A stretch of 54,213 nt of DNA from a virus, in the UHGV virus genome UHGV-0121358, one strand, 5' to 3'. A program made the translations under genes and the position numbers. The stretch's first letter is position 1. Every line of letters begins with the position of its first letter. Below the pieces are notes generated by a model. It was not told the origin of the DNA, searched no databases, and saw only the letters and a program-made list of their open reading frames with translations. Positions 1,603 to 42,706 of this stretch are shown here, in pieces.

Positions 1603-4600
1603 TTATGCTGTAGTTGATGCGCTGAATGATCCTGTTCCTCTTGATACTAGCATTGTTGGAGAATACAAAGCTGTACAATATGAGTAGCCTTCTGATGCTG
1701 ATGTTTGTGGGCAATATATTTGCCCGGTAATACTTGATGCCGTTAAACCAGAAAAAGCGCATTGCACTGTTAATGTGCATCCACCATAAGGAACGTAATA
1801 TTGAATTGTTTTACTTTTACCTCCGCAACTAAACGTTACGTTATAAGTTGATCTATATTCACCAGATGCTAATGAAATCGTCGCCATAAGCATAACTGAT
1901 TTCCTCAATGGACTATCCGTGCTGTCGTTATATGTGATGGTTGCGTTATAACTTCCGTTATACCCAAGCACTCGATCTGGACCAACCCCCATGTTAGCAA
2001 CATCACCAACAAACGTTTTAGCTTCCACCGTTCCTGTGAATTTACCGCTACTTGCATACACCTTGCCCCTTACAGTTACGTTGTTGAACTCCGCGTTGCC
2101 ATTTTTATCAATCATCCACCCGGCAGATCCTGATGCGTAGTTTGTTGACTGTATTCGCTGTGCAATCTTAGCGGTAGTGATAGCTGCATCTGCAATTTTA
2201 GCCGTCCCTATTGATGCGTCTTTAATAAACGCTTCGCGCACATACATTGCGCCATTGGTGACATAGAAAGGCGATTGATATGTGCCGTTTGCCGCAGTCA
2301 TTAACACGAAGCGATCAACCAGGAAAATACACTGCGATTGAAAGTTAGTCCCGTCACCAGTAAGGCCAAGCGACATACCTGTTGCGTATGTTCTGCCGTT
2401 GCTATCTGTTGCCAGCTTGATTGAATACGACGCATCTACATTACCTTTAAAGTCGGTAAGCGCTTTCGATGTTGTCTCTATAGCGGTTTTGTTCCCGTTA
2501 ACGGTCACTGTCAACTGATCAATTTTGCTTGATAATGCTTCGTCAGCCGTTGCCATAGCCTGCGACCATTCCGTGATGCTTGAATTTACATCTTCGAAAG
2601 ACGCCGAGATCTGGACAAATTTTTCAGCGCTTGATGCCTCGTGATTTGCGAGTGCCGTTGAGACATCCATTATTTTTGCTGAAATGTTTTCATTAATATT
2701 TGCCTCAAGCGATGCTATAGCCTCCGCGCGGGCCTGGGTTTCGTCTGCTATTGCTGTATCGATCCTTGCTATTTCCGCTTTTGTTTTTATCTGGCCTTTC
2801 CTGTATTTCGCCTCAATAACAGTGCCCATCTTGCTTTGCGCTATTGAGTTGTTGATAAGTGCAATCGAGGCGTTTTGCAGACTTGCTTTCGCCTGTTCTA
2901 TCTTGTCGCTGTTTTTATCAACATCACTTTCAACAGAACCAAGCTCCGCGCTGATGCCTGATATTGCCTGTGCGCGGGCGCTTGATTCATCGGCAATCGC
3001 CTGATCCAAGCGTTTAACGCTGGCGTTCGTGCTATTTTCAAGCGTTGTTAAATCAGCCTTAACATCCGTTATTGCGTCGCTTCTTGCCTGCGTTTCATCT
3101 GATATTGCTTTATCAAGGCGGGAAACGCTGGCGTCAGTTTTCTTATCAAGATTGCTTATTGCTGCGTTTACACCGTTAATAGCTTCAGCGCGGGCGCTGG
3201 CCTCGTCAGCAACTGCGCGTTGCACGTTAGAGATTTGGCCTTTAAGGTTGGAATCCATCGTATTCATTTCTGCCGTGATGGTTTCCAGTGATTCCGCAGT
3301 CGCTTTTTTCTCTTCAGCGATAACGTTGTCAATACGGTCAATTTCCGCCTTCGTCTCTGTTCTACCTTTTTTGTACTGAGCGGTAAGAGTTACACGGGTG
3401 TTAGTCTGTGCAAGTGAGTTATTAATAAGAGCAATAGAAGCGTTTTGCAGGCTTGCTCTTGCTTGCGCCAGTTCGCTGTCAACTTTTTCGCTAGATACCT
3501 CCAGCGAGTCTATTCTAGACTCATGCTGTCCAATATCATCGGCGTTTTCCTTAACCTTTTTATAAAGATCTTCCGTTTCTTTTTTAAGTGTATCCGTGTC
3601 AGCTTTTATTGACCCTGTTTCTGTGATTAGGTTGTCAGTAGCAGTTTTAAGGTCATTCGTAGCGCTTTCGATAAGATCGGTGCGGTCGCCAAGATCCTTA
3701 ATATCACTTACCATTCCCTTAAATTGCTCTGAATTCATCACGTCTTTGGTGACGTAATCGGTGATTTCATCAAAGTTTTCTGTTGGCTTGCCTGATGCTT
3801 CAACGAAGTCTGACACACCAAAGGCATTACGCGTGCGCACATAAACGTAATAGGTGTGCCCCGTGTTCATGCCGCCAAAAGTCCACTGATGACCACGCCC
3901 GGTATATTGTGCTTTAGTGGTTACTGATGCCGGATCGGTGATTTGTGTTTCACCTGAGTAATAAAACTCATAACTAGTGTCAGTGGTAAGCGTTGTTCTG
4001 CTGATCGGGTAAACTGTAGCCTGAAATACACCGGGAACCCAGTTAACTCCTACCGGGGCCGCTGGTGCGCCAATAACCAGATCCACAATGCTTTCCGCAC
4101 CCTTCATGCCCGTGTCATTTCTGCCACGAATGCCTAGTGAGTAGTTGCCAGCATCAATACCATAAAAATCATAACTGTAATTCGTAGTTTCGTAGCTTTT
4201 AACTACGGCCCCCTCTGAATTATATACGCGGATTTCAAATGTCAGGCGATGAGTTGTCGTCAGTGTTTCCCATGTTGCGCGGCATTGAACTGTTTCAGAT
4301 CCAATATTTAACACCTTCAGGTTTTCAATGTTCGGTACGCGGAAGTGATTAAGCGTGTCGTTGTTGACCTCAAAGATTGCGCCATTATCTACTACAGCCT
4401 GTTTGTGCGGGTCATGCTGTGATGCCTCTACAGTGTACACGCTATTATTTTCTGTTTCTGCTACGCTGGTGATTCGACACAATACGGGTTTTGCTGCGTT
4501 AGTTGACACAGCAAATACAGTACCGTTACGAATCCATGCCGGGGCGGATGCAAGGGTAATTTTATTTCCGCTAACTCCGGTGATCTGGTGTTTTTTAAAT

Positions 4601-6183
4601 TTGCCATCACTATCAAGCAGGCTGATGGTGTCACCAGGGGCGATATATTCAGAATCAACTTTATCGACCGTGATAACCCTGCCATTGTTTGCCACGATGC
4701 GACCGCCTAAACGAGCGCCTGCGCGGTTATTGTCGAGTATCTCGATAATATCACCAGGGGTGAAGTGAATTGCGTCACGGGCCATTTTAAACGTGAATTT
4801 TGACGGCTCGCGTTTTGCTGTTTCTATCAGCCATTTGCCAGCGCGGTACGCTTGCCCGCGTGACGTGCAACCGAAAGCCTCTAGCGTGGTTTCGTTATAA
4901 CCATCGCGGGCGATCAGTTCATCATCTGCCACATATTCTTTTGATTGCTCCCAGCCGTTTTCTGGGTCAGTCCATGATACGATCACGGCGTTGTAACATT
5001 CTGCAAGCGGAAGGCTTGAGCGAGTAAACGCGCCATCAACGACGTTTGCATTTGTGATGGTGGCAATTGGATCTTGTGGCGCATCAATCATCACGGTAAG
5101 GCGTTGCCCGTCCCATAACGCGATGCCACGGAACATACCTGCGATGTTATCCAGTAGGTCGCGGGCGCTCATTTGCTCCGTAATGTAAGCGTTGAGAGTC
5201 ATGCGAGGTTCAAGGCCACCATAGCCATCATCAACCAACTGATCGCAGTATTGAGAAAGCACATACAAAGCGCCATCATCAACATCAATGTAACCAGCAT
5301 GTCTAGCAAGCCCAAAGCGCTCGTTTTTAACCAGATACCGGAAAATCCACGCAGGGTTATTGGTGTACGCTTTTTTGAATCCACCAAGCCATAAACCCGA
5401 ATATGTGCGCGTTTCTGTGTTGTAGTTATCAGGAACATCAACAATCAGGCCGCGAAGGTGATAGGTACGGGTGGGCGTATCAGTATACTGATCATGGTCA
5501 ATTACAGCGCCAGCCACGGCGGTATGAGGATAAGACAGGTTATCATCTATTATTTCGCTGTAACTACTCCACCGCGTATCATTCCGCAATAGATCGCTGT
5601 TGCTGTCTGCTGTTATGCGACGAACGCGAATATCAAACGGCTTTTCATCAGGCGCGTTGATAACGTGAGCTTCCAGGTATTCACCACTCTGTTTACCAGG
5701 CCCGATTGTAATGTATTTAACAGGCGACCACGTCGATGATAATGATGGCTTAACATCAACCATTAACACAACGGATGTATTGTATTGATTGCCCTTATCA
5801 TCTGACTGAACGAGAGCATCAACACCAAGATTCAACCTGACGCGGGTAACGTTTGGATCTGAAACAGTCCTGATTATTGGCGTGTCGTGAGTTACCTTTG
5901 CGTTGACGATAACGGTTGATTCGATGGCATTAAAACCATTAATCGGCGATTGGTCAGCCGTGCCGTTGCGCCAGGCTATACTAATCCCCGGGATTGATGT
6001 ATTCCCGTTTGCGTCAGTAACAGGTGTGTCATTAAGCATCACATCATTTAGTGGCGCCTTCTGGTTTACCGGACCGTATATCGGCCCTTCGCTGAGAATA
6101 TCTAAAACACGATAAAACTGTTTATGATACAGGTTATCGTTTAATAATACTGGTGTCTTGGCTTTGCCGCCGCCGCTACTCAT
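1603..6183 (-). CDS. J: host specificity / central tail fiber protein J (tip attachment), 1526 aa with expanded coiled-coil middle region
   Basis: Track ORF. N-terminus and several blocks (GPIYGPV, DTPIIRT, WSSYSEIID, RTYHLRGLIVDVPDNYNTETRTYSGLW, FGCTSRGQA, HFTPGDIIEILD) match my recollection of lambda gpJ; sits after I/K/L as in lambda. Confidence 0.9.
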   Translation of the reverse strand: MSSGGGKAKTPVLLNDNLYHKQFYRVLDILSEGPIYGPVNQKAPLNDVMLNDTPVTDANGNTSIPGISIAWRNGTADQSPINGFNAIESTVIVNAKVTHDTPIIRTVSDPNVTRVRLNLGVDALVQSDDKGNQYNTSVVLMVDVKPSLSSTWSPVKYITIGPGKQSGEYLEAHVINAPDEKPFDIRVRRITADSNSDLLRNDTRWSSYSEIIDDNLSYPHTAVAGAVIDHDQYTDTPTRTYHLRGLIVDVPDNYNTETRTYSGLWLGGFKKAYTNNPAWIFRYLVKNERFGLARHAGYIDVDDGALYVLSQYCDQLVDDGYGGLEPRMTLNAYITEQMSARDLLDNIAGMFRGIALWDGQRLTVMIDAPQDPIATITNANVVDGAFTRSSLPLAECYNAVIVSWTDPENGWEQSKEYVADDELIARDGYNETTLEAFGCTSRGQAYRAGKWLIETAKREPSKFTFKMARDAIHFTPGDIIEILDNNRAGARLGGRIVANNGRVITVDKVDSEYIAPGDTISLLDSDGKFKKHQITGVSGNKITLASAPAWIRNGTVFAVSTNAAKPVLCRITSVAETENNSVYTVEASQHDPHKQAVVDNGAIFEVNNDTLNHFRVPNIENLKVLNIGSETVQCRATWETLTTTHRLTFEIRVYNSEGAVVKSYETTNYSYDFYGIDAGNYSLGIRGRNDTGMKGAESIVDLVIGAPAAPVGVNWVPGVFQATVYPISRTTLTTDTSYEFYYSGETQITDPASVTTKAQYTGRGHQWTFGGMNTGHTYYVYVRTRNAFGVSDFVEASGKPTENFDEITDYVTKDVMNSEQFKGMVSDIKDLGDRTDLIESATNDLKTATDNLITETGSIKADTDTLKKETEDLYKKVKENADDIGQHESRIDSLEVSSEKVDSELAQARASLQNASIALINNSLAQTNTRVTLTAQYKKGRTETKAEIDRIDNVIAEEKKATAESLETITAEMNTMDSNLKGQISNVQRAVADEASARAEAINGVNAAISNLDKKTDASVSRLDKAISDETQARSDAITDVKADLTTLENSTNASVKRLDQAIADESSARAQAISGISAELGSVESDVDKNSDKIEQAKASLQNASIALINNSIAQSKMGTVIEAKYRKGQIKTKAEIARIDTAIADETQARAEAIASLEANINENISAKIMDVSTALANHEASSAEKFVQISASFEDVNSSITEWSQAMATADEALSSKIDQLTVTVNGNKTAIETTSKALTDFKGNVDASYSIKLATDSNGRTYATGMSLGLTGDGTNFQSQCIFLVDRFVLMTAANGTYQSPFYVTNGAMYVREAFIKDASIGTAKIADAAITTAKIAQRIQSTNYASGSAGWMIDKNGNAEFNNVTVRGKVYASSGKFTGTVEAKTFVGDVANMGVGPDRVLGYNGSYNATITYNDSTDSPLRKSVMLMATISLASGEYRSTYNVTFSCGGKSKTIQYYVPYGGCTLTVQCAFSGLTASSITGQIYCPQTSASEGYSYCTALYSPTMLVSRGTGSFSASTTA

Positions 6184-8108: not shown

Positions 8109-8161
8109 TTTCTCACCTTGTAATTTTGTGATCTGCGTCACGCTAAATCATACCAAAACGG

Positions 8162-8190
8162 TTGATCGCGATTTTTACAATATGTATATT
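8162..8190 (+). promoter_or_regulatory. sigma70-like promoter for plus-strand moron cassette
   Basis: -35 TTGATC (8162-8167), 17-nt spacer, -10 TATATT (8185-8190), directly after the L gene start on the opposite strand. Confidence 0.35.
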
Positions 8191-8404: not shown

Positions 8405-8755
8405 ATGCAAAAATATAGTTTAGAAATATGGACTGATAAGTGTGAATGGGAGCGCATGGGCCTGTTTGACACATACGCCGCAGCGCGTGATGAAGGTAGT
8501 GAGTTACTTCGCTGTTGGTCTGGCGCTCGTGATTTTGATATTACTCCGGTCCAAGTACCGGACCTGGTGGAAGAGATGAACCCGAAAGATATTAACTTTA
8601 ACGTCAATGTTGAATTTGCAGACTCTATGGATCAGGCTTGCCCTGGTGAAATACACGCAAAAGGTTTTCCGGCTGACGATCCAGAAGCAAAACGAGAATA
8701 CGAAAAAGCTGCGAAAGACTTCTGCATAGATAACCTGGCCGCATTCGATAAATAA
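8405..8755 (+). CDS. hypothetical protein (moron gene 2)
   Basis: Track ORF; GAGAGG SD 8 nt upstream of ATG; no recognised motif. Confidence 0.5.
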   Translation: MQKYSLEIWTDKCEWERMGLFDTYAAARDEGSELLRCWSGARDFDITPVQVPDLVEEMNPKDINFNVNVEFADSMDQACPGEIHAKGFPADDPEAKREYEKAAKDFCIDNLAAFDK

Positions 8756-8764
8756 GGCGGCAAC

Positions 8765-9013
8765 ATGGGGCGGCGCAATCACGGCGATTATGTGTACACG
8801 CTGAAACAGGCCGCCCGCCTCATCGGTTATCATGAGCACGAATTTATTGATTTGCTGATTGAGCGCGGGATACTGTACCAGGTCTGTTTAACGCTGTACC
8901 CGAAAGCGAAATACCTACAGGAAAAGTTATTCATCATCATGACGGATGAAAACCAGGTTAATCATTCATTCGTCACTGATAAGGGATTGACATATTTGAA
9001 GGGGGCGTTATGA
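8765..9013 (+). CDS. hypothetical protein with possible AlpA/excisionase-type HTH (moron gene 3)
   Basis: Track ORF; segment YTLKQAARLIGYHEHEFIDLLIERGIL resembles HTH_17/MerR-type DNA-binding helices (pattern recognition only). Confidence 0.5.
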   Translation: MGRRNHGDYVYTLKQAARLIGYHEHEFIDLLIERGILYQVCLTLYPKAKYLQEKLFIIMTDENQVNHSFVTDKGLTYLKGAL

Positions 9014-9659: not shown

Positions 9660-9757
9660 AAAACCCCCATAAGTCACATTTTGTATATATCTTTACGCGC
9701 CTCTACGCGAAAAATGAGATCTTAATCACAATGATTATAGCTAGTTTACAAAATGGC

Positions 9758-9786
9758 TTCACATAGTGCGCAACAAGATGTATATA
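9758..9786 (+). promoter_or_regulatory. sigma70-like promoter for second plus-strand moron cassette
   Basis: -35 TTCACA, 17-nt spacer, -10 TATATA; immediately preceded by the recurrent motif TACAAAATGG (9747-9756). Confidence 0.35.
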
Positions 9787-9827
9787 GAAAGCAAGAAGAA
9801 AAGCAGTACCAACGAAGGAGGCCAAAA

Positions 9828-9983
9828 ATGAAACGCTATGTAGTGGTAATGCTGAACAACGCATTCGAACAAGTGGAAATAGCAATCGTTAAGGGCTTCG
9901 ACGACGCATTCAAATACGGTCAATTCATGATGAATGCAAAAGAAGATGAATACCGTGATTTCTTCCTGAAGGCACTCAACTAA
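9828..9983 (+). CDS. hypothetical small protein
   Basis: Track ORF 9753..9983; in-frame ATG at 9828 with strong AAGGAGG SD 7 nt upstream. Confidence 0.5.
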   Translation: MKRYVVVMLNNAFEQVEIAIVKGFDDAFKYGQFMMNAKEDEYRDFFLKALN

Positions 9984-10000
9984 GGATGATGGGGTGAGTT

Positions 10001-10255
10001 ATGAAACTGGTAGCGATTGATAAAAACCTGAAAGTACAGAAAAACGCACAAGACAGGATTATCAAGAAAGGGAAGGAACTGCTTAAAGCATTTTTGAAGA
10101 AAGAGGCGCGCCCCAAAAAGTTACGTGATGGTTATGGCTTTAAATTCGACATCAACCCTGACTGGAGGCTGTTTAGCGAAGACCTAAAAGTCTGGTTAAT
10201 TATCGATCATCTGGAATATAACAGGCACTGTGGAGTCAAAGGGGTGCATAAGTGA
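10001..10255 (+). CDS. hypothetical protein
   Basis: Track ORF; GGGGTGAG SD; basic, no recognised motif. Confidence 0.5.
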   Translation: MKLVAIDKNLKVQKNAQDRIIKKGKELLKAFLKKEARPKKLRDGYGFKFDINPDWRLFSEDLKVWLIIDHLEYNRHCGVKGVHK

Positions 10256-10364
10256 GGTGGGACATGGAGGACGATAAATTCACCTGGCGGGAGATCTGGA
10301 ATATTTGGTTGGTGATGTTCGGCAGTGGTTACGTCGCACGTAACGGAAGATTATAGGAGGAAAA

Positions 10365-10550
10365 ATGATTATTGACGAAACAGAGTTATGTTACGGAGTT
10401 AGGTTAGATCTTGATGAGGATGGTCGGCTATGGATAACCGAACTCATGGGGACTGACACCCTCGTAATTGACAAATCGCAGGCGACGCAACTTATCGCCG
10501 GGCTTCAAAAATTTATAGATGGCACATTTGAGAACGATCAGGAGGATTAA
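10365..10550 (+). CDS. hypothetical small acidic protein
   Basis: Track ORF; strong TAGGAGGA SD. Confidence 0.5.
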   Translation: MIIDETELCYGVRLDLDEDGRLWITELMGTDTLVIDKSQATQLIAGLQKFIDGTFENDQED

Positions 10551-10552
10551 CA

Positions 10553-10840
10553 ATGGATTTAACCGTCATTGGTCACGCACTGGCTGCGGCGGCTATGCAG
10601 GTTGTTATCGGCCTGCTTACTGGTGATTATCTCACTGGCGGCCTGATTGGATGTACATTCTTTTTTGCACGCGAACACACGCAGGCTGAATATCGTTACA
10701 TAGCGGAATTTTGCGGTGGAAAACGGGAAAGAATGCCGTGGTATGGCGGATTATTACCTAAAGCATGGAATATGGCTAGCGTTTGCGACTTCGCCGCACC
10801 TGTATTCCTGTGCTGTTTGATTTATATTCTCACCATGTAA
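10553..10840 (+). CDS. hypothetical membrane protein
   Basis: Track ORF; CAGGAGGA SD; hydrophobic N- and C-terminal segments. Confidence 0.5.
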   Translation: MDLTVIGHALAAAAMQVVIGLLTGDYLTGGLIGCTFFFAREHTQAEYRYIAEFCGGKRERMPWYGGLLPKAWNMASVCDFAAPVFLCCLIYILTM

Positions 10841-10869: not shown

Positions 10870-13215
10870 TTATTTGCGGCGCGGTTGCAACATCCCGCCA
10901 GGTCTTTGCGATTCCCTTGTTATCATCTTCATTGCTACACGTTCCATTGTTGATTCAAGTCTGCGGCTGTCTTCTTCGCTAAATCCGTTTGTGGTTTGAA
11001 TACTGATACTGACAGGCATACTAAAACCGCCACCGCCGCCAATATCACGACCAGGAATAACCCTGCCGTTCTCGCCTGGGATCATATATTGGTTGCCGTT
11101 AGACGTCTGGAATAGCTCCGGCCTGTTGTGTTCCCCTACGCGGTACATATTGCCACCAATGACGCTACCACCATTAAAGCGACCGCCGCCGAAAATTGAC
11201 GTAGCCAGCGACATGATCGCAGTGAGCGCAGCCGAACCAGCCGCCGCCCAGCTACCGCCAGTTGATGCAGCCGTTGCCGCCGCCGCCGGGGCCGCCGCCG
11301 CCGCGATGCTTCCCTGAGCGGCAACCGCGCTTGCCGTTGTACTTGCTTGAGTTGCCTTGCTTTGTGTTTCCATCATGATCTGATCTGCTATCCAGTCGGC
11401 TGCTATATCAGAAAGTCTGTTGCCAATATTCCCTAGTATATTGCTCCCTAAGTTAGCAAAAACATCGCTCAATGATTGAGTACCGTTAAGCAGGCCGACA
11501 AGCGCATTGCTCATGCCACCTTTAAGGCCATTAACGCAATCACCGATCAGGCCGTTTGTCTGGCTTTGCGCCTGCCATTGCTCCCATTTCAGATCGCGGA
11601 TCTGTTGCTCATAGGCTAACAATGCCTGTTTCTGTTGCGCTTCGGTAGCGCCCAGGTCGATAAGCATTTGCTTACGGACGGCCCATTCATTTTGTACCTG
11701 CTGAATAGGGTCAACCTCGCCTTTAAGCTGATTCATCGGGCTTACTATTTGCGCCCATTTATCACGCAATTCATCTACCGGAATTTGGGCTAATTCTTCC
11801 TTCAGTTCCTTACCTATCCCTTTTTGCGCGGCGCGGTACTCAAGGAGGGTGATTTTACCCTGGGCGAATGCAGCATCAATGGCCTTGCCGTTCTCTAACG
11901 CTTTGCGCATGGCGGCGGCGTCTTTATTGTACTGGTCAGAAACGCTTATACCCTTGTCACCAAGCGTATCCTCTTTGCTTTTCTTGCTGCCACTCTTCTT
12001 ACCCTTTTTAGGCTTATCAACTGGCTTGTCGAATCCGGTGATCTTGCCGTCGTTGGCTTCTGCCTGTTTCTGCATAAACTCATCATAAGCGGCAGTCGCG
12101 TTTTTAATGTCGTTTGCAAAAGTCATGACTTTACCGACTGTAGGGCCGAATTTCTTCTCATTGTTGCTATTTAGTTCTTCCTTGCGCTTATCTACAACCT
12201 CCTTCATCCATTTGTAGGCGTCCATAAGTGCCTTGATTGGCATCACCATTGCGATGATCTTCTCTGCCACCTCGCCAGCCTTCACAGCCACATCATCAAA
12301 CATGTCGATGAATTCGCCACCAGCCGTTTTGAGTGTATCGAAGCAGGTTTTAGCGAATTTAGCGCCCTCACCTAACCCCTTAACGCCTTTTGTGATTAAG
12401 TCGATAGCTGAGACTACGCCATCTGATACGCCGAAAAGATCATCAAGCTGTTCAACAAGACCCATGATTTCGACTTTAAGCTCATTGATAGCCATGCCGG
12501 ATGTGCGCGGCAACTGAGCAAACTGCTCGTTTGTTTCCTGCGTAGCCGCCTGGATTGCGTTAACCATCCTTTCTGCCGTGATCTTGCCGTCCAGCATTTC
12601 GGCGCGGAACTGGCCCATAGATAACCCCATCTGACGGGCCATTGTCTGTACGATGGTCGGGGTGTTTTCAAGTAGGCTGTTAAATTCTTCAGCACGCAGC
12701 ACGCCGCCGTCTATAGACTGGCGGAACTGGCGCATAGAGTTAGACATCTGTTCCGCTGATGCGCCGCCTAACGCCCCCATTTTCTGAATAGTGCCAACCA
12801 GGTTAAGTAATTGCCCTTCCGTAGCTGACGTGTTCTTCAGTGAGATGGCAAGACCTTGCCATAGCTCGCCAGTATCCTTCAGGCTTTGCCCCGTTTCCCT
12901 GGATATTGCTTTCAGGCCGTCGAAAACCCGTCCGGCGGACTCCGCATCGCCCGTAAGCATTTTGATTTTTACGCGAAGCATTTTTGCTTGCTCCGCCATA
13001 TCCATAAATTGGCGCACAGCCTCGGCAGCAATTAGCAAATGGATAACCCTGGTCAGTGCTTTGATGGATGTTTTCAGGGTGTTTACCTGGCGGTCAGCCT
13101 GTTTTGCGCCGCGCTCTATACGGTCAAAGGCCTGGTCTGCCTGTCGTTGTGCAACGAGAAGTTGACCAGTTTTTGCATCAACTTCGTAATAAATTGTACC
13201 TACACTGGTAGCCAT
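10870..13215 (-). CDS. tail tape measure protein
   Basis: Track ORF, 781 aa, largely alpha-helical with Ala/Gly-rich stretches; located upstream of M-L-K-I-J. Confidence 0.85.
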   Translation of the reverse strand: MATSVGTIYYEVDAKTGQLLVAQRQADQAFDRIERGAKQADRQVNTLKTSIKALTRVIHLLIAAEAVRQFMDMAEQAKMLRVKIKMLTGDAESAGRVFDGLKAISRETGQSLKDTGELWQGLAISLKNTSATEGQLLNLVGTIQKMGALGGASAEQMSNSMRQFRQSIDGGVLRAEEFNSLLENTPTIVQTMARQMGLSMGQFRAEMLDGKITAERMVNAIQAATQETNEQFAQLPRTSGMAINELKVEIMGLVEQLDDLFGVSDGVVSAIDLITKGVKGLGEGAKFAKTCFDTLKTAGGEFIDMFDDVAVKAGEVAEKIIAMVMPIKALMDAYKWMKEVVDKRKEELNSNNEKKFGPTVGKVMTFANDIKNATAAYDEFMQKQAEANDGKITGFDKPVDKPKKGKKSGSKKSKEDTLGDKGISVSDQYNKDAAAMRKALENGKAIDAAFAQGKITLLEYRAAQKGIGKELKEELAQIPVDELRDKWAQIVSPMNQLKGEVDPIQQVQNEWAVRKQMLIDLGATEAQQKQALLAYEQQIRDLKWEQWQAQSQTNGLIGDCVNGLKGGMSNALVGLLNGTQSLSDVFANLGSNILGNIGNRLSDIAADWIADQIMMETQSKATQASTTASAVAAQGSIAAAAAPAAAATAASTGGSWAAAGSAALTAIMSLATSIFGGGRFNGGSVIGGNMYRVGEHNRPELFQTSNGNQYMIPGENGRVIPGRDIGGGGGFSMPVSISIQTTNGFSEEDSRRLESTMERVAMKMITRESQRPGGMLQPRRK

Positions 13216-13257
13216 GATTTAACCTCATGCAAAAATGTGATCTGTGTATCTATTTTA

Positions 13258-13297
13258 TACAAAATGGCTTTACTTCAACGACTCCATTTTGTATAAG
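13258..13297 (+). promoter_or_regulatory. promoter-like region with inverted copies of recurrent motif (TACAAAATGG ... CCATTTTGTA)
   Basis: Perfect 10-bp inverted repeat (13258-13267 / 13284-13293) bracketing -35 TTTACT (13269-13274); -10 TATAAG (13292-13297) after a 17-nt spacer; upstream of lipoprotein gene. Confidence 0.45.
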
Positions 13298-13342
13298 GAA
13301 GCCAAAGGGAAAGGTCAGTAAATCAAGTTAGCGTGGTGGGTT

Positions 13343-14002
13343 ATGAAACGGTTAGCAAAAGTGGCAATGATTGCGGCGGTATTGGGTCTGGTTGGTTGCA
13401 ATGAGGATAATGAAAAAGCGCCTATAGTGACCAATCAAGAACAACAAGCATTAGCAGAGAAAAATGCTAAATGGCTTGCAGAACAACAAGCAAAACAAGC
13501 CGCATACGATGCACAGTTAGAAAAAGAAAATGCTGGTAAACAGTGGCTTGTAGTTGAAAGAAAAGATGATATGCAGGACGCAAAAAACGTATTCCTTTTT
13601 GTGAAAGCAGAACAATTCAGCGGAAGTCTTGATGCTTTCCCGACACTGAAGGCACAGGATAAGAATAAACCGGTATTAACAATCGCTTGCCAGGGTAATA
13701 AAACAAAAATGTTCGTAGCATGGTCACACCATGTAACTGACGCCGGGGACACTACTTATATTAACTACCGGATCGGCGTTCACAAAGCTGTAGCTACTGA
13801 GTGGGGGCGGTCAACTAATTATAAAGCTCTTGGATTATGGGATGGCAAAAAAGCCATCCCAATGATTAAAAAAATGGTTAACGAAAAACAATTCATCATT
13901 GAAGTAGTGCCGGAAGCTGGCGACATTGAGAAAGCAGTGTTTAACATTGATGGTCTTTATAACCACATCGACAAAGTGAAAAACGCTTGCAACTGGAATT
14001 AA
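13343..14002 (+). CDS. lipoprotein, function unknown
   Basis: Track ORF; signal peptide with lipobox LVGC (MKRLAKVAMIAAVLGLVGC); opposite strand to flanking tail genes. Confidence 0.7.
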   Translation: MKRLAKVAMIAAVLGLVGCNEDNEKAPIVTNQEQQALAEKNAKWLAEQQAKQAAYDAQLEKENAGKQWLVVERKDDMQDAKNVFLFVKAEQFSGSLDAFPTLKAQDKNKPVLTIACQGNKTKMFVAWSHHVTDAGDTTYINYRIGVHKAVATEWGRSTNYKALGLWDGKKAIPMIKKMVNEKQFIIEVVPEAGDIEKAVFNIDGLYNHIDKVKNACNWN

Positions 14003-14012
14003 GGGGTAAATC

Positions 14013-14387
14013 ATGAAAAACATAATCAAAGCGGCTCTCATTGGTGTTATGGCTTTAGCTCTTACAGGGTGCGCAAGATCAACTGATTTCGTTAAGTTAG
14101 CTGATAAAAAATTGCAAGTTGGAATGACTTGTGAGCAAGTGAATAAAATAATGGGGGAACCACAAAGAATCGAGCATGACGGTAATTATAGTTATCACGT
14201 ATGGTATTCAGTAACCAGCACGATAGGATTTACTTACATGGATGTTGAAGAATTATCCCCTTCAAGGGTTATCGCAAAGTTTGATAACTGCATCCTAAAA
14301 GAATGGAAAGATCGCAGTAAGGCAAAGTCTGTATACAATACAATCACACACAGTTCACCAGGTACAGCAATTAAAGATTTCAATTAG
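14013..14387 (+). CDS. lipoprotein with BamE/SmpA-OmlA-like segment
   Basis: Track ORF; lipobox LTGC; GMTCEQVNKIMGEP resembles the BamE-type motif (pattern recognition only). Confidence 0.6.
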   Translation: MKNIIKAALIGVMALALTGCARSTDFVKLADKKLQVGMTCEQVNKIMGEPQRIEHDGNYSYHVWYSVTSTIGFTYMDVEELSPSRVIAKFDNCILKEWKDRSKAKSVYNTITHSSPGTAIKDFN

Positions 14388-14401
14388 CAAAACGCCCTGA
14401 T

Positions 14402-15088
14402 CTACCGGGCTTTTTCTTGCTCACGATTTTTCATTCTTTCTAGTGCCTTTTTAGCGGCCTCCATTTGCTCGTCATAAGCACGTTTATTTATGTGAATGTT
14501 TGGCTTGCTTCTCTCGTTTCTTTCGTCTGGCGGCGTTTTAGCGCGTACAGCGGCCCTATATCCGGTCATTGTCATATTCCATGCTTCCGATTCTGACAAG
14601 CCCAGGTGAGCAACGGCAGAATAAACGAATTCCAGCACGTTAAAAGTAGGCTTATATTCCCCTTCCCGGATCTCTCCGGCGTCTTCTTCCGGCCCGTCAC
14701 CGATTAAGCCGTGGTACATGCAATGCTGCGCCAGCGTGATAACGTCACTGGTAGGCATCAGTCCTGGTCTTAGCCGTAACTTGCCGGAAGGAGTAAACCT
14801 ACATTCGCCTAATAGCGTGCCTATTTCGTCGTCTGAGCAACATTTCAGGATGTGCATGGACGTTTGCACCATTTCACCATAACACCGCGCCATAATGCGA
14901 TTGCGAAGGTCTGGATCCGCTGGCAATCGTGATGGATATTTGCCACCGTGTATGGTTGCGAAGTATTCGACCAGTTCGCTGTCACTGCCGATTTTAGCCA
15001 TTGCAGCGAAGCAGGGATTAAACACGTACCGCCTGCCGTCTACCACCGCCGCAAATTGTCCCGTTCGAACATGGATCATAGCTGTCAC
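14402..15088 (-). CDS. putative tail assembly chaperone (between tail tube and tape measure)
   Basis: Track ORF; assignment by position only. Confidence 0.4.
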   Translation of the reverse strand: MTAMIHVRTGQFAAVVDGRRYVFNPCFAAMAKIGSDSELVEYFATIHGGKYPSRLPADPDLRNRIMARCYGEMVQTSMHILKCCSDDEIGTLLGECRFTPSGKLRLRPGLMPTSDVITLAQHCMYHGLIGDGPEEDAGEIREGEYKPTFNVLEFVYSAVAHLGLSESEAWNMTMTGYRAAVRAKTPPDERNERSKPNIHINKRAYDEQMEAAKKALERMKNREQEKAR

Positions 15089-26381: not shown

Positions 26382-26870
26382 TTATTCTTTGCGTAAGCAC
26401 TGCGTATTGATGTAGTCCTGCAATCCGGTGATCTTCGCGTCTTTTTCTTTTAATTGTTCTCTGAGGGATAGATAAGCCGATTCAGCGTCTGGAGTGAGTC
26501 TACAGGTGGCTCCATCAATGCGGCTGGCGGTTCCGGTATTGTCGAGCAATCGCACTGGTTCGGCGTTGACGTGCAACCGGATAGCGCCGCTATCAATACC
26601 AGTGCGCAGATCGGCAATGTCAGATCTGATAGCTTTAATCTCATCGTGATACCTCTTATCAAGTTTTGACAGTTCGGCGTTTCGCTCCTTCATCTGCTGA
26701 ATAGTGTTACTTGCCGTTTTCAGTGCGCCTTTCGTTACCGTGACTTCTTCCTGTAACCTTGCCGCCTCACCCTGGTAATAACATGTTACGGCGGTCAGTC
26801 CGGCAATAATGCAAACAACAGCGGCGATAATTAACGCCTTCACCTTGTCCACGTTTCCCCCCATTCGCAA
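26382..26870 (-). CDS. Rz: i-spanin Rz
   Basis: Track ORF; N-terminal TM segment then coiled-coil; follows endolysin; contains embedded Rz1 frame. Confidence 0.75.
26450..26644 (-). CDS. Rz1: o-spanin Rz1 (embedded in Rz, alternate frame)
   Basis: Track ORF 26450..26662; from ATG at 26644 gives [24 protein letters not shown]... with lipobox LSGC and Pro-rich mature region. Confidence 0.65.
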   Translation of the reverse strand: MRLKLSDLTLPICALVLIAALSGCTSTPNQCDCSTIPEPPAALMEPPVDSLQTLNRLIYPSENN

Positions 26871-32040: not shown

Positions 32041-32763
32041 TCATTCACCTCGCGTCACTCGTTTAATTTCGTTATCAGCCCGCGCCTCTTCTTTGAACAA
32101 TTCAGCGATGGCGTCTTCATAGAAAACCCGGTATTTTTTCCACCATGTTGATCGGCTTACCGGAAATACAAGCTGATTAACCGCACGCCGGACAAGATCT
32201 ACAGGGAAACGCGAGTACCCGCGCCCGCCGCAATGCTGGCACGTTTTGAACACTGGCATTTCCGCTGCTTCACTGGCTGCTTTATCCGGTATCTCGCCGC
32301 GCCCTTTGCATCGTTTACAATGATTGCGAACTTTTCCATGCCCCTTGCATTTTTTGCAAAGGTGTTTTTCTCCGTAGTCGTCAAACGTAAATTTATATCC
32401 GCCGCAATCCATACAAGTTTTTTCTGTCGCGGCACTCTGGCAGTAATCCCGAAACGCGAAAACGGCAACAAGAATAATAAGATCATTGCGTTTGTCCTCG
32501 TCCAGCTCCATGACGTATTCGTAATCTTTTGCCATAGCTCTTAAACGCTCTGTAAGCAAAACTACGGCCCTGTGTTTTTCGGCTTGCGATAGTTCCATCT
32601 TCCCTAAAAAAGCGCTGTAACCAAGCTCTACGCGCGATTGCGCCATACCTGCAGCGGTTAGCGCATCAGTCGTATTAAGCGCATCCGGGGATGTGCCCCG
32701 GCTTTCGTCTGATAATCGCGGTGATTTGGGAAAGTGGAATTTCAGAATGGATTCTAAATTCAT
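32041..32763 (-). CDS. Q: late-gene antiterminator Q (lambda Q family)
   Basis: Track ORF; N-terminus MNLESILKFHFPKSPRLSDESRGTSPD...AAGMAQS and C-terminal Cys-rich motifs (CKRCKGRG, CQHCGGRGYSRFP) match my recollection of lambda Q. Confidence 0.8.
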   Translation of the reverse strand: MNLESILKFHFPKSPRLSDESRGTSPDALNTTDALTAAGMAQSRVELGYSAFLGKMELSQAEKHRAVVLLTERLRAMAKDYEYVMELDEDKRNDLIILVAVFAFRDYCQSAATEKTCMDCGGYKFTFDDYGEKHLCKKCKGHGKVRNHCKRCKGRGEIPDKAASEAAEMPVFKTCQHCGGRGYSRFPVDLVRRAVNQLVFPVSRSTWWKKYRVFYEDAIAELFKEEARADNEIKRVTRGE

Positions 32764-42058: not shown

Positions 42059-42706
42059 TTATGGCAGGTTTACGATCTTCGCATCAACCACCACGCCTAT
42101 AATTTTTGATTCTGGATTCATAGGGATTGGCGGATACAGCGGATTGAGCGAACGTAAAAGCCTTTGACCTCCATCAATAATCAACTGTTTAAACGTCGGT
42201 ATCTGCCCTTCCTCAAGCTGGGCTATAACCAGTTTGCCGTCAATAGCTGGCGCGTGCGGGTCCACAAGTATCATCGTCCCCGCCGGGATGCTCAACCCCT
42301 GCGGCGCGTTCATTGATTCACCTTTGGCAACCAGCCAGTAACTGTCATCTGAACAAATAACGCTAGTCGTAACGTGTCGTAATGCTGAACGCCTTGCGTC
42401 ATCCATATTGTTTACTGTGTCCTTCCAGTCAATAACCGGGTAACTACCTAAATCACGCGGCGGCACGGCCTGAAGTGTATTAGAAACAGAATCATCAATG
42501 ACCATGCCATCATGTGTAACAGTAAACTGCCGACGACCAAGCTCGCGCATAATCCGCGCAATATCTTCAAGATTTGGCTCTCGGCGACCGTTCAGCCAGT
42601 GTGACAGGCCGCCTTTAGTTATCCCCATACGATCCGCGAGCGAATCCTGGCTCATGCCCTGCGCCCGCATGAGCTGCTTTGCTAAGTCATACCATTTTGT
42701 TTTCAT
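42059..42706 (-). CDS. cI: cI-type repressor (HTH_XRE N-terminus, LexA/S24 peptidase-like C-terminus)
   Basis: Track ORF; N-terminal HTH (QDSLADRMGITKGGLSHWLNG), C-terminal S24-like region with conserved Ser (GESM) and Lys (PTFKQL); divergent from replication operon. Confidence 0.85.
   Translation of the reverse strand: MKTKWYDLAKQLMRAQGMSQDSLADRMGITKGGLSHWLNGRREPNLEDIARIMRELGRRQFTVTHDGMVIDDSVSNTLQAVPPRDLGSYPVIDWKDTVNNMDDARRSALRHVTTSVICSDDSYWLVAKGESMNAPQGLSIPAGTMILVDPHAPAIDGKLVIAQLEEGQIPTFKQLIIDGGQRLLRSLNPLYPPIPMNPESKIIGVVVDAKIVNLP

What the first reader, a model, noticed from the sequence alone, without database searches (positions are those of the whole stretch)
13258..14420. Two lipoprotein genes on the opposite strand inside the tail operon (candidate superinfection-exclusion cargo)
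Between the tape-measure start and the putative tail chaperone are two plus-strand genes with signal peptides and lipoboxes (LVGC, LTGC); the second has a BamE/SmpA-OmlA-like segment. They have their own promoter, embedded in the inverted TACAAAATGG repeat. Prophage lipoproteins expressed from tail-region morons are known to block receptors or modify the envelope (for example Cor and Llp), so these are candidates for envelope remodelling or receptor masking.
Basis: partly seen in the sequence, partly recalled or inferred. Interest (0 to 1): 0.6.

Follow-up and report, generated by a model that had tools for sequence, protein, structure and literature searches.

The report
Two-lipoprotein moron in prophage tail operon
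An E. coli prophage carries, between its tail-chaperone and tape-measure genes, a swappable opposite-strand cassette encoding two outer-membrane lipoproteins (one with a VasI/IalB fold, one BamE-like) that most likely help the lysogen resist incoming phages, though this has not been tested.

Summary
ORF1 (13343-14002, 219 aa, lipobox LVGC) and ORF2 (14013-14387, 124 aa, LTGC) are real, conserved plus-strand genes. They lie between the tape-measure gene (10870-13215, minus) and a DUF6246 gene in the tail-chaperone position (14402-15088, minus).

Its AF2 model is a lipid-anchored helical stalk plus an IalB-like beta-sandwich. ORF2 has a BamE/OsmE/BLIP fold.

The window is a prophage of the published mEpimmI group. 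This locus is a variable cargo hotspot in that group. Other phages carry unrelated secreted or membrane proteins there, behind the same conserved upstream region. ORF1 and ORF2 also occur separately.

None of the nine VasI homologues I checked lies in a T6SS cluster, and eight lie in prophages, so the TagO label is probably misleading.

The 13-bp inverted repeat is real and its 11-bp core is nearly invariant across relatives. The sigma-70 promoter inside it is only plausible.

Superinfection exclusion is the best-supported function, but the support is by analogy only: HK97 gp15 at the same position, mEpimmI Lpp lipoproteins at another locus, and the VasI-like-fold defence protein SDIC4B. I rate this an ordinary-to-moderately interesting moron: a new member of a known kind.

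The parts
10870..13215 (-). Tape-measure protein gene (left flank of the cassette)
   Evidence: Pfam TMP_3 1.9e-49; phrog_1538 1.9e-150
13236..13242 (+). Invariant TGTGATC motif (CRP-like half-site, centred about 62 bp upstream of the putative transcription start)
   Evidence: Invariant in 13/13 related loci. The same TGTGATCTG(T/C)GT block recurs at 1438 and 8127. The CRP reading is my inference.
13255..13267 (+). Left arm of the 13-bp perfect inverted repeat (TTATACAAAATGG); an A/T-rich stretch in the position of an UP element
   Evidence: The 11-bp core TATACAAAATG is invariant in all 13 related loci.
13284..13296 (+). Right arm of the inverted repeat (CCATTTTGTATAA); it overlaps the putative -10 element
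   Evidence: As RNA the repeat folds at -14.3 kcal/mol, z -3.6.
13269..13297 (+). Putative sigma-70 promoter TTTACT-17 nt-TATAAG (TATAAA in most relatives)
   Evidence: Read directly from the sequence; not called by the scanner. A paralogous module at 8162-8190 (TTGATC-17-TATATT) is called.
13343..14002 (+). ORF1: 219-aa lipoprotein precursor (lipobox LVGC, Cys19). It has a helical stalk followed by a VasI/IalB-fold beta-sandwich (residues about 55-218, nt 13505-13996). Cys116 and Cys216 are conserved.
14013..14387 (+). ORF2: 124-aa lipoprotein precursor (lipobox LTGC, Cys20). Its core has a BamE/OsmE/BLIP fold (residues about 25-100, nt 14085-14312). Cys40 and Cys93 are invariant.
   Evidence: phrog_18614. 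Sub-threshold BamE, DUF7738 and OsmE hits. AF2 core pLDDT 77-96 over most of the domain, with one loop near 58. Foldseek top hits are BamE, BtiO, OsmE and BLIP. Most of the distant relatives scanned (6 of 10) carry BamE or related domains.
14394..14418 (+). Terminator-like hairpin GCCCTG-ATCTA-CCGGGC followed by TTTTTCTT. It overlaps the stop codon of the DUF6246 gene. The window copy has a G-to-T mismatch in the stem.
   Evidence: Fold -9 kcal/mol, z -1.8. Relatives have a perfect 6-bp stem, and mEp013 carries an ARNold-annotated terminator at the same place.
14402..15088 (-). DUF6246 gene in the tail-assembly-chaperone position (right flank of the cassette)
   Evidence: Pfam DUF6246 2.7e-56, with only faint Phage_TAC hits. 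Homologues occur in 311 phage records.

Best explanation
This is a moron: a horizontally exchanged transcription unit of its own, inserted antisense into the late tail operon of an mEpimmI-type E. coli prophage. It sits at the chaperone/tape-measure junction, which serves as a variable cargo hotspot. [quoted passage not shown] ORF1 places a disulfide-stabilised VasI/IalB-type beta-sandwich into the periplasm on a helix of about 33 residues. ORF2 is a small BamE/OsmE/BLIP-fold protein-binding module. The most likely role is protection of the lysogen at the envelope level, in other words superinfection exclusion or defence at the adsorption-to-DNA-entry step. The proteins would do this by binding either a periplasm-exposed host component or the penetrating tail apparatus. 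What is shown: gene reality, lipoprotein signals, folds, the variability of the locus, and the prophage rather than T6SS context of the family. What is inferred: expression in lysogens, outer-membrane location, the anti-phage role and its mechanism.
For: The lipoboxes are invariant. Each mature protein has a conserved Cys pair, which fits a periplasmic location. GC is low compared with the flanks. The cassette is 99.1% identical in genomes whose 2.5-kb region, flanks included, is only about 95% identical. The flanks are therefore about 91% identical by my arithmetic, which marks the cassette as a recently exchanged module. The hotspot holds at least six unrelated cargo types in related phages. 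Every first-position cargo I saw has a signal peptide or transmembrane helices, and several share the MKRL(A/V/I)K signal-peptide start. ORF1 occurs without ORF2 (L016, M1/5) and ORF2 without ORF1 (mEp013). The 5' block and the 3' hairpin are conserved. Of nine VasI homologues checked, eight lie in prophages, and three of those are beside tail-chaperone and tape-measure genes. HK97 gp15, an exclusion protein, lies at the same position (PMC3594210). Opposite-strand lipoprotein morons of this phage group exclude phages experimentally (PMC11893012). SDIC4B, a VasI-like-fold protein, is sufficient for 10-200-fold phage protection (bioRxiv 10.1101/2024.01.28.577318). [quoted passage not shown]
Against: There is no functional or expression data for either protein. 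PADLOC returns nothing. Neither protein is related to Cor, Llp or the tested mEpimmI Lpp proteins. The sigma-70 promoter is weak on paper because it lacks the -7 T. ORF1 is not strictly tied to one J receptor-binding tip: 10 of 15 ORF1-positive prophages share the window-like tip and 5 do not. That argues against a simple block of the phage's own receptor. The VasI/IalB fold has no known biochemical activity.
Confidence: 0.45

Rival explanations
1. The cassette provides immunity-like protection against periplasm-acting antibacterial weapons such as T6SS effectors, colicins or lysozymes, rather than against phages. One or both lipoproteins would bind and neutralise an incoming toxin.
For: The ORF2 fold matches the Bacteroides T6SS immunity protein BtiO (9uu1) and the BLIP enzyme inhibitors as well as BamE. 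The VasI domain was named from its occurrence in T6SS clusters. Periplasmic lipoproteins are a common format for T6SS immunity proteins (my own knowledge). Cor also protects against colicin M.
Against: No cognate effector gene lies nearby. BtiO shares only 12% identity with ORF2, and its Foldseek score is no better than those of BamE and OsmE. VasI has no documented immunity role; a review lists its function as unknown.
Confidence: 0.2
2. The cassette is a lysogenic-conversion fitness or virulence factor, in the manner of Bor, Lom or IalB. The lipoproteins would alter envelope properties such as serum resistance, adhesion or invasion, or the osmotic and envelope stress response, possibly by mimicking BamE or OsmE.
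Against: The same fold appears in strictly lytic T4-like phages such as RB16, KP15 and Aeromonas phage 65.2, where host virulence is irrelevant. The mEpimmI phages in which the hotspot is best documented (mEp013, mEp021, mEp010) were propagated on E. coli K-12 from human faeces.
Confidence: 0.15
3. ORF1 is a genuine T6SS accessory protein (TagO/VasI), supplied by the prophage to modulate the host's own T6SS.
For: The Pfam VasI hit is above threshold. PGAP names it TagO.
Against: The NCBIfam VasI equivalog model scores 45.8 bits against a cut-off of 124.2. None of the nine homologue contexts contains T6SS genes. Homologues occur in phages of Brucella, a genus without a T6SS to my knowledge, and of Pasteurella. 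The Serratia preprint reaches the same conclusion for its own VasI-like proteins.
Confidence: 0.05

Closest known systems
HK97 gp15 moron (superinfection exclusion)
   Same: [quoted passage not shown] Both are independent cargo units that encode an envelope protein (PMC3594210).
   Different: gp15 is a small inner-membrane YebO-like protein. Here there are two outer-membrane-type lipoproteins with unrelated folds, transcribed antisense to the operon.
mEpimmI Lpp exclusion lipoproteins (Lpp021 = mEp021 gp81; Lpp010 = mEp010 gp116)
   Same: They belong to the same phage group. They are opposite-strand lipoprotein genes embedded in the structural cluster, and exclusion has been demonstrated experimentally (PMC11893012).
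   Different: They are different genes at a different locus. mEp021 gp81 is 72 aa and lies downstream of J. ORF1 and ORF2 are not mentioned in the text or supplements that I searched.
Cor (phi80, N15, HK022) and Llp (T5)
   Same: They are small phage lipoproteins of the outer-membrane inner leaflet that protect the cell by binding the periplasmic face of the receptor FhuA.
   Different: No Cor or Llp family appeared in the Pfam or PHROG scans. ORF1 is about three times larger and has a VasI/IalB fold. Its receptor linkage is incomplete.
SDIC4B, the VasI-like-fold anti-phage protein of Serratia and enterobacterial defence islands
   Same: It carries a VasI-like fold, lies outside T6SS clusters, is predominant in Klebsiella, Salmonella, Citrobacter, Enterobacter and E. 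coli, and confers phage protection on its own.
   Different: The authors say SDIC4B has no BLAST identity to T6SS VasI, whereas ORF1 hits Pfam VasI directly. Its context is BrxR-linked islands, not a tail operon.
T6SS VasI/TagO (Pfam PF11319; TIGR03360)
   Same: They share the domain family.
   Different: ORF1 scores below the equivalog cut-off. It has no T6SS neighbourhood. It has a lipoprotein anchor and helical stalk in place of the RLxCYD-type N-terminus seen in other family members.
BamE / OsmE / BLIP fold family
   Same: ORF2 is a lipoprotein with an alpha-alpha-beta-beta-beta core, and its top structural matches come from this family.
   Different: ORF2 scores below the Pfam BamE gathering threshold. 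Its family is narrow: only 12 hits among 1.84 billion representatives. It has an extra C-terminal tail. There is no evidence that it joins the BAM complex.

Membership tests
Bacterial lipoprotein (Lgt/Lsp substrate; PROSITE PS51257-type signal) | Basic n-region, uncharged h-region, and a lipobox [LVI][ASTVI][GAS]C with the Cys at position 15-35 | tested here: met
   ORF1 has K2, R3, K6, then MIAAVLGLVG-C19. ORF2 has K2, K6, then IGVMALALTG-C20. The Gly-Cys is invariant in homologues.
Bacterial lipoprotein (Lgt/Lsp substrate; PROSITE PS51257-type signal) | Actual lipidation, Lsp cleavage and Lol sorting | not testable with these tools
   This needs globomycin sensitivity, palmitate labelling and membrane fractionation. 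The +2 residues (Asn, Ala) predict the outer membrane under the E. coli Asp+2 rule, which I cite from my own knowledge.
Pfam VasI (PF11319) | Score above the Pfam gathering threshold | tested here: met
   57.9 bits against 26.5, covering residues 55-218 and profile positions 25-184 of 184.
T6SS accessory protein VasI/TagO (NCBIfam TIGR03360 equivalog) | Score above the equivalog cut-off | tested here: not met
   45.8 bits against a cut-off of 124.2.
T6SS accessory protein VasI/TagO (NCBIfam TIGR03360 equivalog) | Encoded within or next to a T6SS gene cluster | tested here: not met
   The window is a prophage. None of nine homologue neighbourhoods contains T6SS genes.
BamE (PF04355, SmpA_OmlA) | Score above the Pfam gathering threshold | tested here: not met
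   20.2 bits against 23.2, and only residues 32-51 align.
BamE (PF04355, SmpA_OmlA) | Alpha-alpha-beta-beta-beta fold on a lipoprotein | tested here: met
   The AF2 elements are H26-33, H40-47, E52-55, E59-66, E84-91 and E94-100. The top Foldseek PDB hits are BamE chains with probability 1.00 and E-value about 3e-3, followed by OsmE, BLIP and BtiO.
BamE (PF04355, SmpA_OmlA) | Subunit of the BAM complex | not testable with these tools
   This would need co-purification with BamA or BamD.
Moron (Juhala/Hendrix sense) | Extra DNA between genes that are adjacent in related phages, with deviant base composition | tested here: met
   Cargo at the junction varies across 34 E. coli prophages and across the phages examined. 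In L017, DUF6246 and the tape-measure gene are directly adjacent. GC is 0.38-0.41 against 0.48-0.54.
Moron (Juhala/Hendrix sense) | Own promoter and terminator | tested here: inconclusive
   The terminator-like hairpin is conserved. The upstream block is strongly conserved, but its -10 element lacks the -7 T and the scanner did not call it. A paralogous module at 8162-8190 is called.
Moron (Juhala/Hendrix sense) | Expressed from the repressed prophage | not testable with these tools
   No transcript data were available.
Cor/Llp-type receptor-blocking exclusion lipoproteins | Sequence homology to Cor or Llp | tested here: not met
   No such family appeared among the Pfam, PHROG, NCBIfam or PADLOC hits.
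Cor/Llp-type receptor-blocking exclusion lipoproteins | Co-variation with the phage's own receptor-binding protein | tested here: inconclusive
   10 of 15 ORF1-positive prophages share the window-like J C-terminus, against 1 of 19 ORF1-negative ones. However, three ORF1-positive lineages (STEC306-308, MLI107, GF66.2) have other tips, and the counts are not phylogenetically independent.
SDIC4 anti-phage system (VasI-like fold) | Homology to SDIC4B | not testable with these tools
   The SDIC4B sequence is not given in the text I could read. Only the shared 'VasI-like fold' label links the two.

The most novel reading that the evidence does not exclude
Periplasmic proteins with the VasI/IalB fold may be a widespread, so far unrecognised class of prophage-borne envelope defence. 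They recur at moron sites of lambda-like siphoviruses, P2-like myoviruses and other temperate phages, and they would interfere with trans-envelope penetration devices, meaning phage tails and possibly T6SS spikes. On this reading, most 'TagO/VasI' annotations in Enterobacteriaceae mark prophage cargo rather than T6SS parts, and the BamE-like partner is an independent second layer of protection.
Probability: 0.2. Interest if true: 0.7.

Novelty: new member of a known kind. Interest (0 to 1): 0.4.

Why it matters
If the cassette does exclude phages, it would add a new protein family (VasI/IalB fold) to the short list of lipoprotein-type superinfection-exclusion factors. It would also give a first function to a domain listed as "unknown" in T6SS reviews, and it would correct a systematic annotation: "T6SS-associated TagO" applied to prophage cargo in E. 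coli, Klebsiella, Salmonella, Enterobacter and Pectobacterium. The chaperone/tape-measure hotspot, with its conserved upstream block and swappable mature domains behind a shared signal-peptide start, is also a convenient natural library of envelope-acting phage proteins to screen. If no phenotype is found, this remains an ordinary moron of unknown function.

Tried and rejected
- **Sequence search against the PDB.** Nothing useful was found for either protein.
- **PADLOC defence models.** There were no hits.
- **Fold library afdb50.** It was not available. BFVD returned only uncharacterised phage proteins.
- **Consensus promoter scan of 13000-14700.** It did not call the proposed promoter, and the only terminator-like site it found (14666-14679) lies outside the cassette, inside the DUF6246 gene.
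- **Is the inverted repeat a CI operator?** I rejected this. The CI-like repressor gene (42059-42706; HTH_3 plus Peptidase_S24) is preceded by CTTGC-N6-GCAAG-type palindromes that are unrelated to TATACAAAATG (my reading).
- **Is the repeat a terminator?** I rejected this. No U-run follows the hairpin on either strand.
- **Are ORF1 and ORF2 the published mEpimmI Lpp exclusion proteins?** I rejected this for the one whose position I checked. mEp021 gp81 is a 72-aa gene downstream of J. The supplements do not mention TagO, VasI or the two N-terminal sequences.
- **Genuine T6SS accessory role.** I rejected this.
- **Linkage to the receptor-binding J tip.** The test was inconclusive.
- **Exhaustive search with mature ORF2.** It gave only 12 hits. 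The family is narrow, and the search added only BamE-clan hints.
Full report
**1. What is in the sequence**

The region holds two plus-strand ORFs, at 13343-14002 (219 aa) and 14013-14387 (124 aa). They are separated by 10 nt, and ORF2 has its own GGGG ribosome-binding site. On the minus strand, the cassette is flanked by a tape-measure gene (10870-13215; Pfam TMP_3 1.9e-49) and a DUF6246 gene (14402-15088; 2.7e-56). The DUF6246 gene sits directly downstream of the tail-tube gene, in the position normally held by a tail-assembly chaperone.

Both N-termini have Lys/Arg residues, an uncharged hydrophobic core and a lipobox: LVGC with Cys19, and LTGC with Cys20. The residues after the Cys are Asn and Ala, not Asp, so outer-membrane sorting is expected under the E. 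coli rule (my own knowledge). A scan of every start codon in the window found only one other credible lipobox ORF, the o-spanin at 26450-26644. The lipobox Gly-Cys is invariant in all homologues. Each mature protein also has a conserved Cys pair (C116/C216 and C40/C93), which fits a periplasmic location.

Cassette GC is 0.38-0.41, against 0.48-0.54 in the flanking genes.

**2. What the two proteins are**

- **ORF1.** It is a member of Pfam VasI (PF11319; 57.9 bits against a gathering score of 26.5) and of phrog_1848, which has no assigned function. [quoted passage not shown] It scores only 45.8 bits against the 124.2-bit cut-off of the NCBIfam VasI equivalog model.
- **ORF2.** It belongs to phrog_18614. 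It gives only sub-threshold hits to BamE (20.2 against 23.2 bits), DUF7738 and OsmE. Its AF2 core has pLDDT 77-96 over most of the domain, with one loop near 58, and an alpha-alpha-beta-beta-beta topology. The top Foldseek PDB hits are BamE chains, then the Bacteroides T6SS immunity protein BtiO, OsmE and BLIP.
- **ORF2 relatives.** An exhaustive search of 1.84 billion representatives found only 12 relatives. Most of the distant ones scanned (6 of 10) carry BamE, DUF7738, DUF3192 or DUF3862 domains.

**3. Context: a cargo hotspot in a known phage group**

The window is a prophage of the mEpimmI group of Nus-dependent, non-lambdoid E. coli siphoviruses. Its relatives include mEp013, mEp021 and MagusPhagus (PMC11893012). 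Thirty-four of 5,426 complete E. coli genomes carry the backbone around this locus, and 15 of them carry ORF1.

The content between the tape-measure and DUF6246 genes differs among relatives:

| Cargo at the hotspot | Found in |
|---|---|
| 137/138-aa secreted protein | MagusPhagus, LSU61, 09-00049, E21845 |
| 116-aa and 165-aa secreted proteins | strains 127 and M15 |
| 100-aa two-TM protein | UMNK88, N1286, 127, E21845 |
| 59-aa TM protein plus an ORF2 homologue (85% identity) | mEp013 |
| ORF1 plus an unrelated 106-aa protein | M1/5 |
| ORF1 alone | L016 |

ORF1 and ORF2 are therefore separable modules. Several unrelated cargos begin with the same MKRL(A/V/I)K signal-peptide start, so the recombination boundary lies inside the signal peptide.

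The cassette is 99.1% identical in genomes whose 2.5-kb region, flanks included, is only about 95% identical. By my arithmetic the flanks are about 91% identical, which points to recent exchange of the cassette as a unit.

**4. Regulatory elements**

Upstream of ORF1 lies a perfect 13-bp inverted repeat (13255-13267 / 13284-13296, with a 16-nt spacer). Its left arm is unchanged in all 13 related loci. The 11-bp core of the right arm is unchanged in 12 of them, and the exception has a single substitution. A TGTGATC motif at 13236 is invariant. This conservation holds even where the tape-measure N-terminus and the cargo differ.

A sigma-70-like TTTACT-17-TATAAG (TATAAA in most relatives) overlaps the right arm. 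It lacks the -7 T, and the scanner did not call it.

A paralogous module precedes another plus-strand island in the tail operon. It consists of TGTGATCTGCGTCACG, then ATACCAAAACGG, then TTGATC-17-TATATT at 8127-8190, and there the scanner does call a promoter. A third, partial copy lies at 1433-1475.

The repeat is not followed by a U-run on either strand, so it is not a terminator. It is also unlike the palindromes upstream of the CI-like repressor gene. I therefore regard an independent promoter as likely but unproven. The repeat may be a regulator-binding site.

Downstream of ORF2 lies a GC-rich hairpin with a T-run (14394-18). Its stem is a perfect 6 bp in relatives, and mEp013 has a terminator annotated at the same place. 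The window copy carries one mismatch in the stem. The phage encodes a Q-type antiterminator (32041-32763), which could explain how late transcription passes through these sites. That last point is my inference.

**5. Is ORF1 a T6SS protein?**

The evidence says no.

- It does not reach the equivalog cut-off.
- I examined nine homologue neighbourhoods. Three lie beside tail-chaperone and tape-measure genes of siphovirus-type prophages (L016, L017, L028).
- Five lie at the right end of P2-like prophages, after ogr, usually paired with a 110-117-aa gene that in some copies encodes a zinc-ribbon membrane protein (L018/L019, L020, L021, L022, L026).
- One lies in a small island at the cpxP-fieF site (L027).
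- None contains T6SS genes.
- tblastn also finds the domain in temperate phages of Klebsiella, Citrobacter, Pasteurella, Brucella and Labrenzia.

The search was seeded with phage sequences, so it says nothing about the T6SS-encoded branch of the family. It does show that the branch containing ORF1 is prophage cargo.

**6. Most likely function**

Three independent lines point to protection against incoming phages.

- HK97 gene 15, the archetypal moron and a proven exclusion protein, sits at exactly this junction.
- In the same phage group, other opposite-strand lipoprotein genes exclude phages when expressed alone. These are Lpp021 and Lpp010, which are different genes; Lpp021 lies downstream of J.
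- A preprint shows that SDIC4B, a protein with a VasI-like fold that is not found in T6SS clusters, is sufficient for 10-200-fold phage protection.

In addition, every alternative first-position cargo I saw at the hotspot is targeted to the envelope.

All of this is analogy. No datum bears directly on ORF1 or ORF2. PADLOC is silent. ORF1 is only loosely linked to a particular receptor-binding J tip. I put the anti-phage reading at about 0.45.

The rival readings are toxin immunity (0.2, based on the BtiO and BLIP resemblance of ORF2), a fitness or virulence factor (0.15, based on the IalB and OsmE resemblance), and a true T6SS accessory role (0.05).

**7. Verdict**

The feature is a new member of a known kind: a moron encoding envelope proteins at a classical hotspot. 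It offers two points of moderate interest:

- a probable systematic mis-annotation of prophage VasI-domain proteins as T6SS parts;
- a testable candidate function for a domain of unknown role.

Noticed in passing
window 13343-13399; L002, L009, L010, L012 cargo genes: Unrelated cargo proteins at the hotspot share the same start, MKRL(A/V/I)K followed by a hydrophobic core, in both signal-peptidase I and lipoprotein versions. The recombination boundary therefore lies inside the signal peptide. The hotspot swaps mature domains behind a fixed promoter, RBS and export signal.
   Followed up: partly
L002 about 5200-5290, and the equivalent positions in L005-L008 and L010-L012 (absent from the window): Many relatives carry an extra 27-aa ORF (MKNVNYRPNEHERYADFIEEMLKALKK) between the inverted repeat and the cargo gene. 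It has a strong RBS and is preceded by a CCGGATTAACCGG hairpin. STEC308 has this element together with ORF1 and ORF2, while the window lacks it. It may be a leader peptide or a small regulator.
   Followed up: no
window 8127-8190, 9715-9756, 1433-1475: Modules paralogous to the one upstream of ORF1 occur elsewhere. They contain TGTGATCTG(T/C)GT or a CRP-like TGTGA-N6-TCAC(G/A), an ACAAAA(T/C)GG motif, and a sigma-70-like promoter. They precede the other plus-strand islands in the tail operon and also occur past the end of J. CRP-like sites number 5 against 1.8 expected (5 of 100 shuffles reach 5). This suggests a shared, possibly cAMP-CRP-responsive, control of the morons.
   Followed up: partly
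whole window: The 8-mer ACAAAATG occurs 19 times against about 2.3 expected from base composition. TATACAAAATGG with up to 2 mismatches occurs 22 times against 6.9 expected. Several of these are RBS-to-ATG contexts (AAAATGG), and the rest are unexplained.
   Followed up: partly
window 8405-9013 and 9753-10840 (plus strand): Two further opposite-strand cargo islands lie inside the tail operon. They include a KilAC-domain antirepressor-like protein (8765-9013) and a ParE-like toxin domain protein (10001-10255), along with small ORFs of unknown function.
   Followed up: partly
L013 3436-4666; L014 3358-4588; L019, L021, L022, L026: P2-like prophages of E. coli, Klebsiella, Enterobacter, Pectobacterium and Citrobacter carry a two-gene unit after ogr at the prophage end. 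It consists of a 110-117-aa gene (a zinc-ribbon plus transmembrane protein where I checked) and a secreted VasI-domain protein. In the two I translated (P88-4B11, 500465-2) the VasI protein has three RLxCYD repeats. The Salmonella copy (L020) has the VasI gene without that partner. This pair may correspond to the two-gene SDIC4 system of the Serratia preprint, but I could not check that.
   Followed up: partly
L015 2497-7516 / L028 5572-10591 (Pasteurella phage Pmp14 and a related prophage): In this Pasteurella phage the chaperone/tape-measure junction holds a large same-strand island. It includes a secreted VasI-domain protein, two other secreted proteins, a 652-aa HATPase_c_3 protein that looks like a defence gene, and a KilA-N protein.
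   Followed up: no
window 14394-14410: The terminator stem of the window copy carries a G-to-T change (GCCCTG against GCCCGG in relatives). This weakens the hairpin to -9 kcal/mol.
   Followed up: yes
window 1603-2050 (3' end of the J-like gene) compared with the ORF1 cassette: 10 of 15 ORF1-positive E. coli prophages share the window-like J C-terminus at 88-90% identity, against 1 of 19 ORF1-negative ones. STEC306-308, MLI107 and GF66.2 carry ORF1 with other tips. No genome in the collection matches the window's J tip closely.
   Followed up: partly
L017 5166-6675: In one metagenomic relative, DUF6246 directly abuts the tape-measure gene. The VasI lipoprotein cassette sits on the other side of DUF6246. 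This shows that the cargo is dispensable at the junction and that the insertion point can shift.
   Followed up: no
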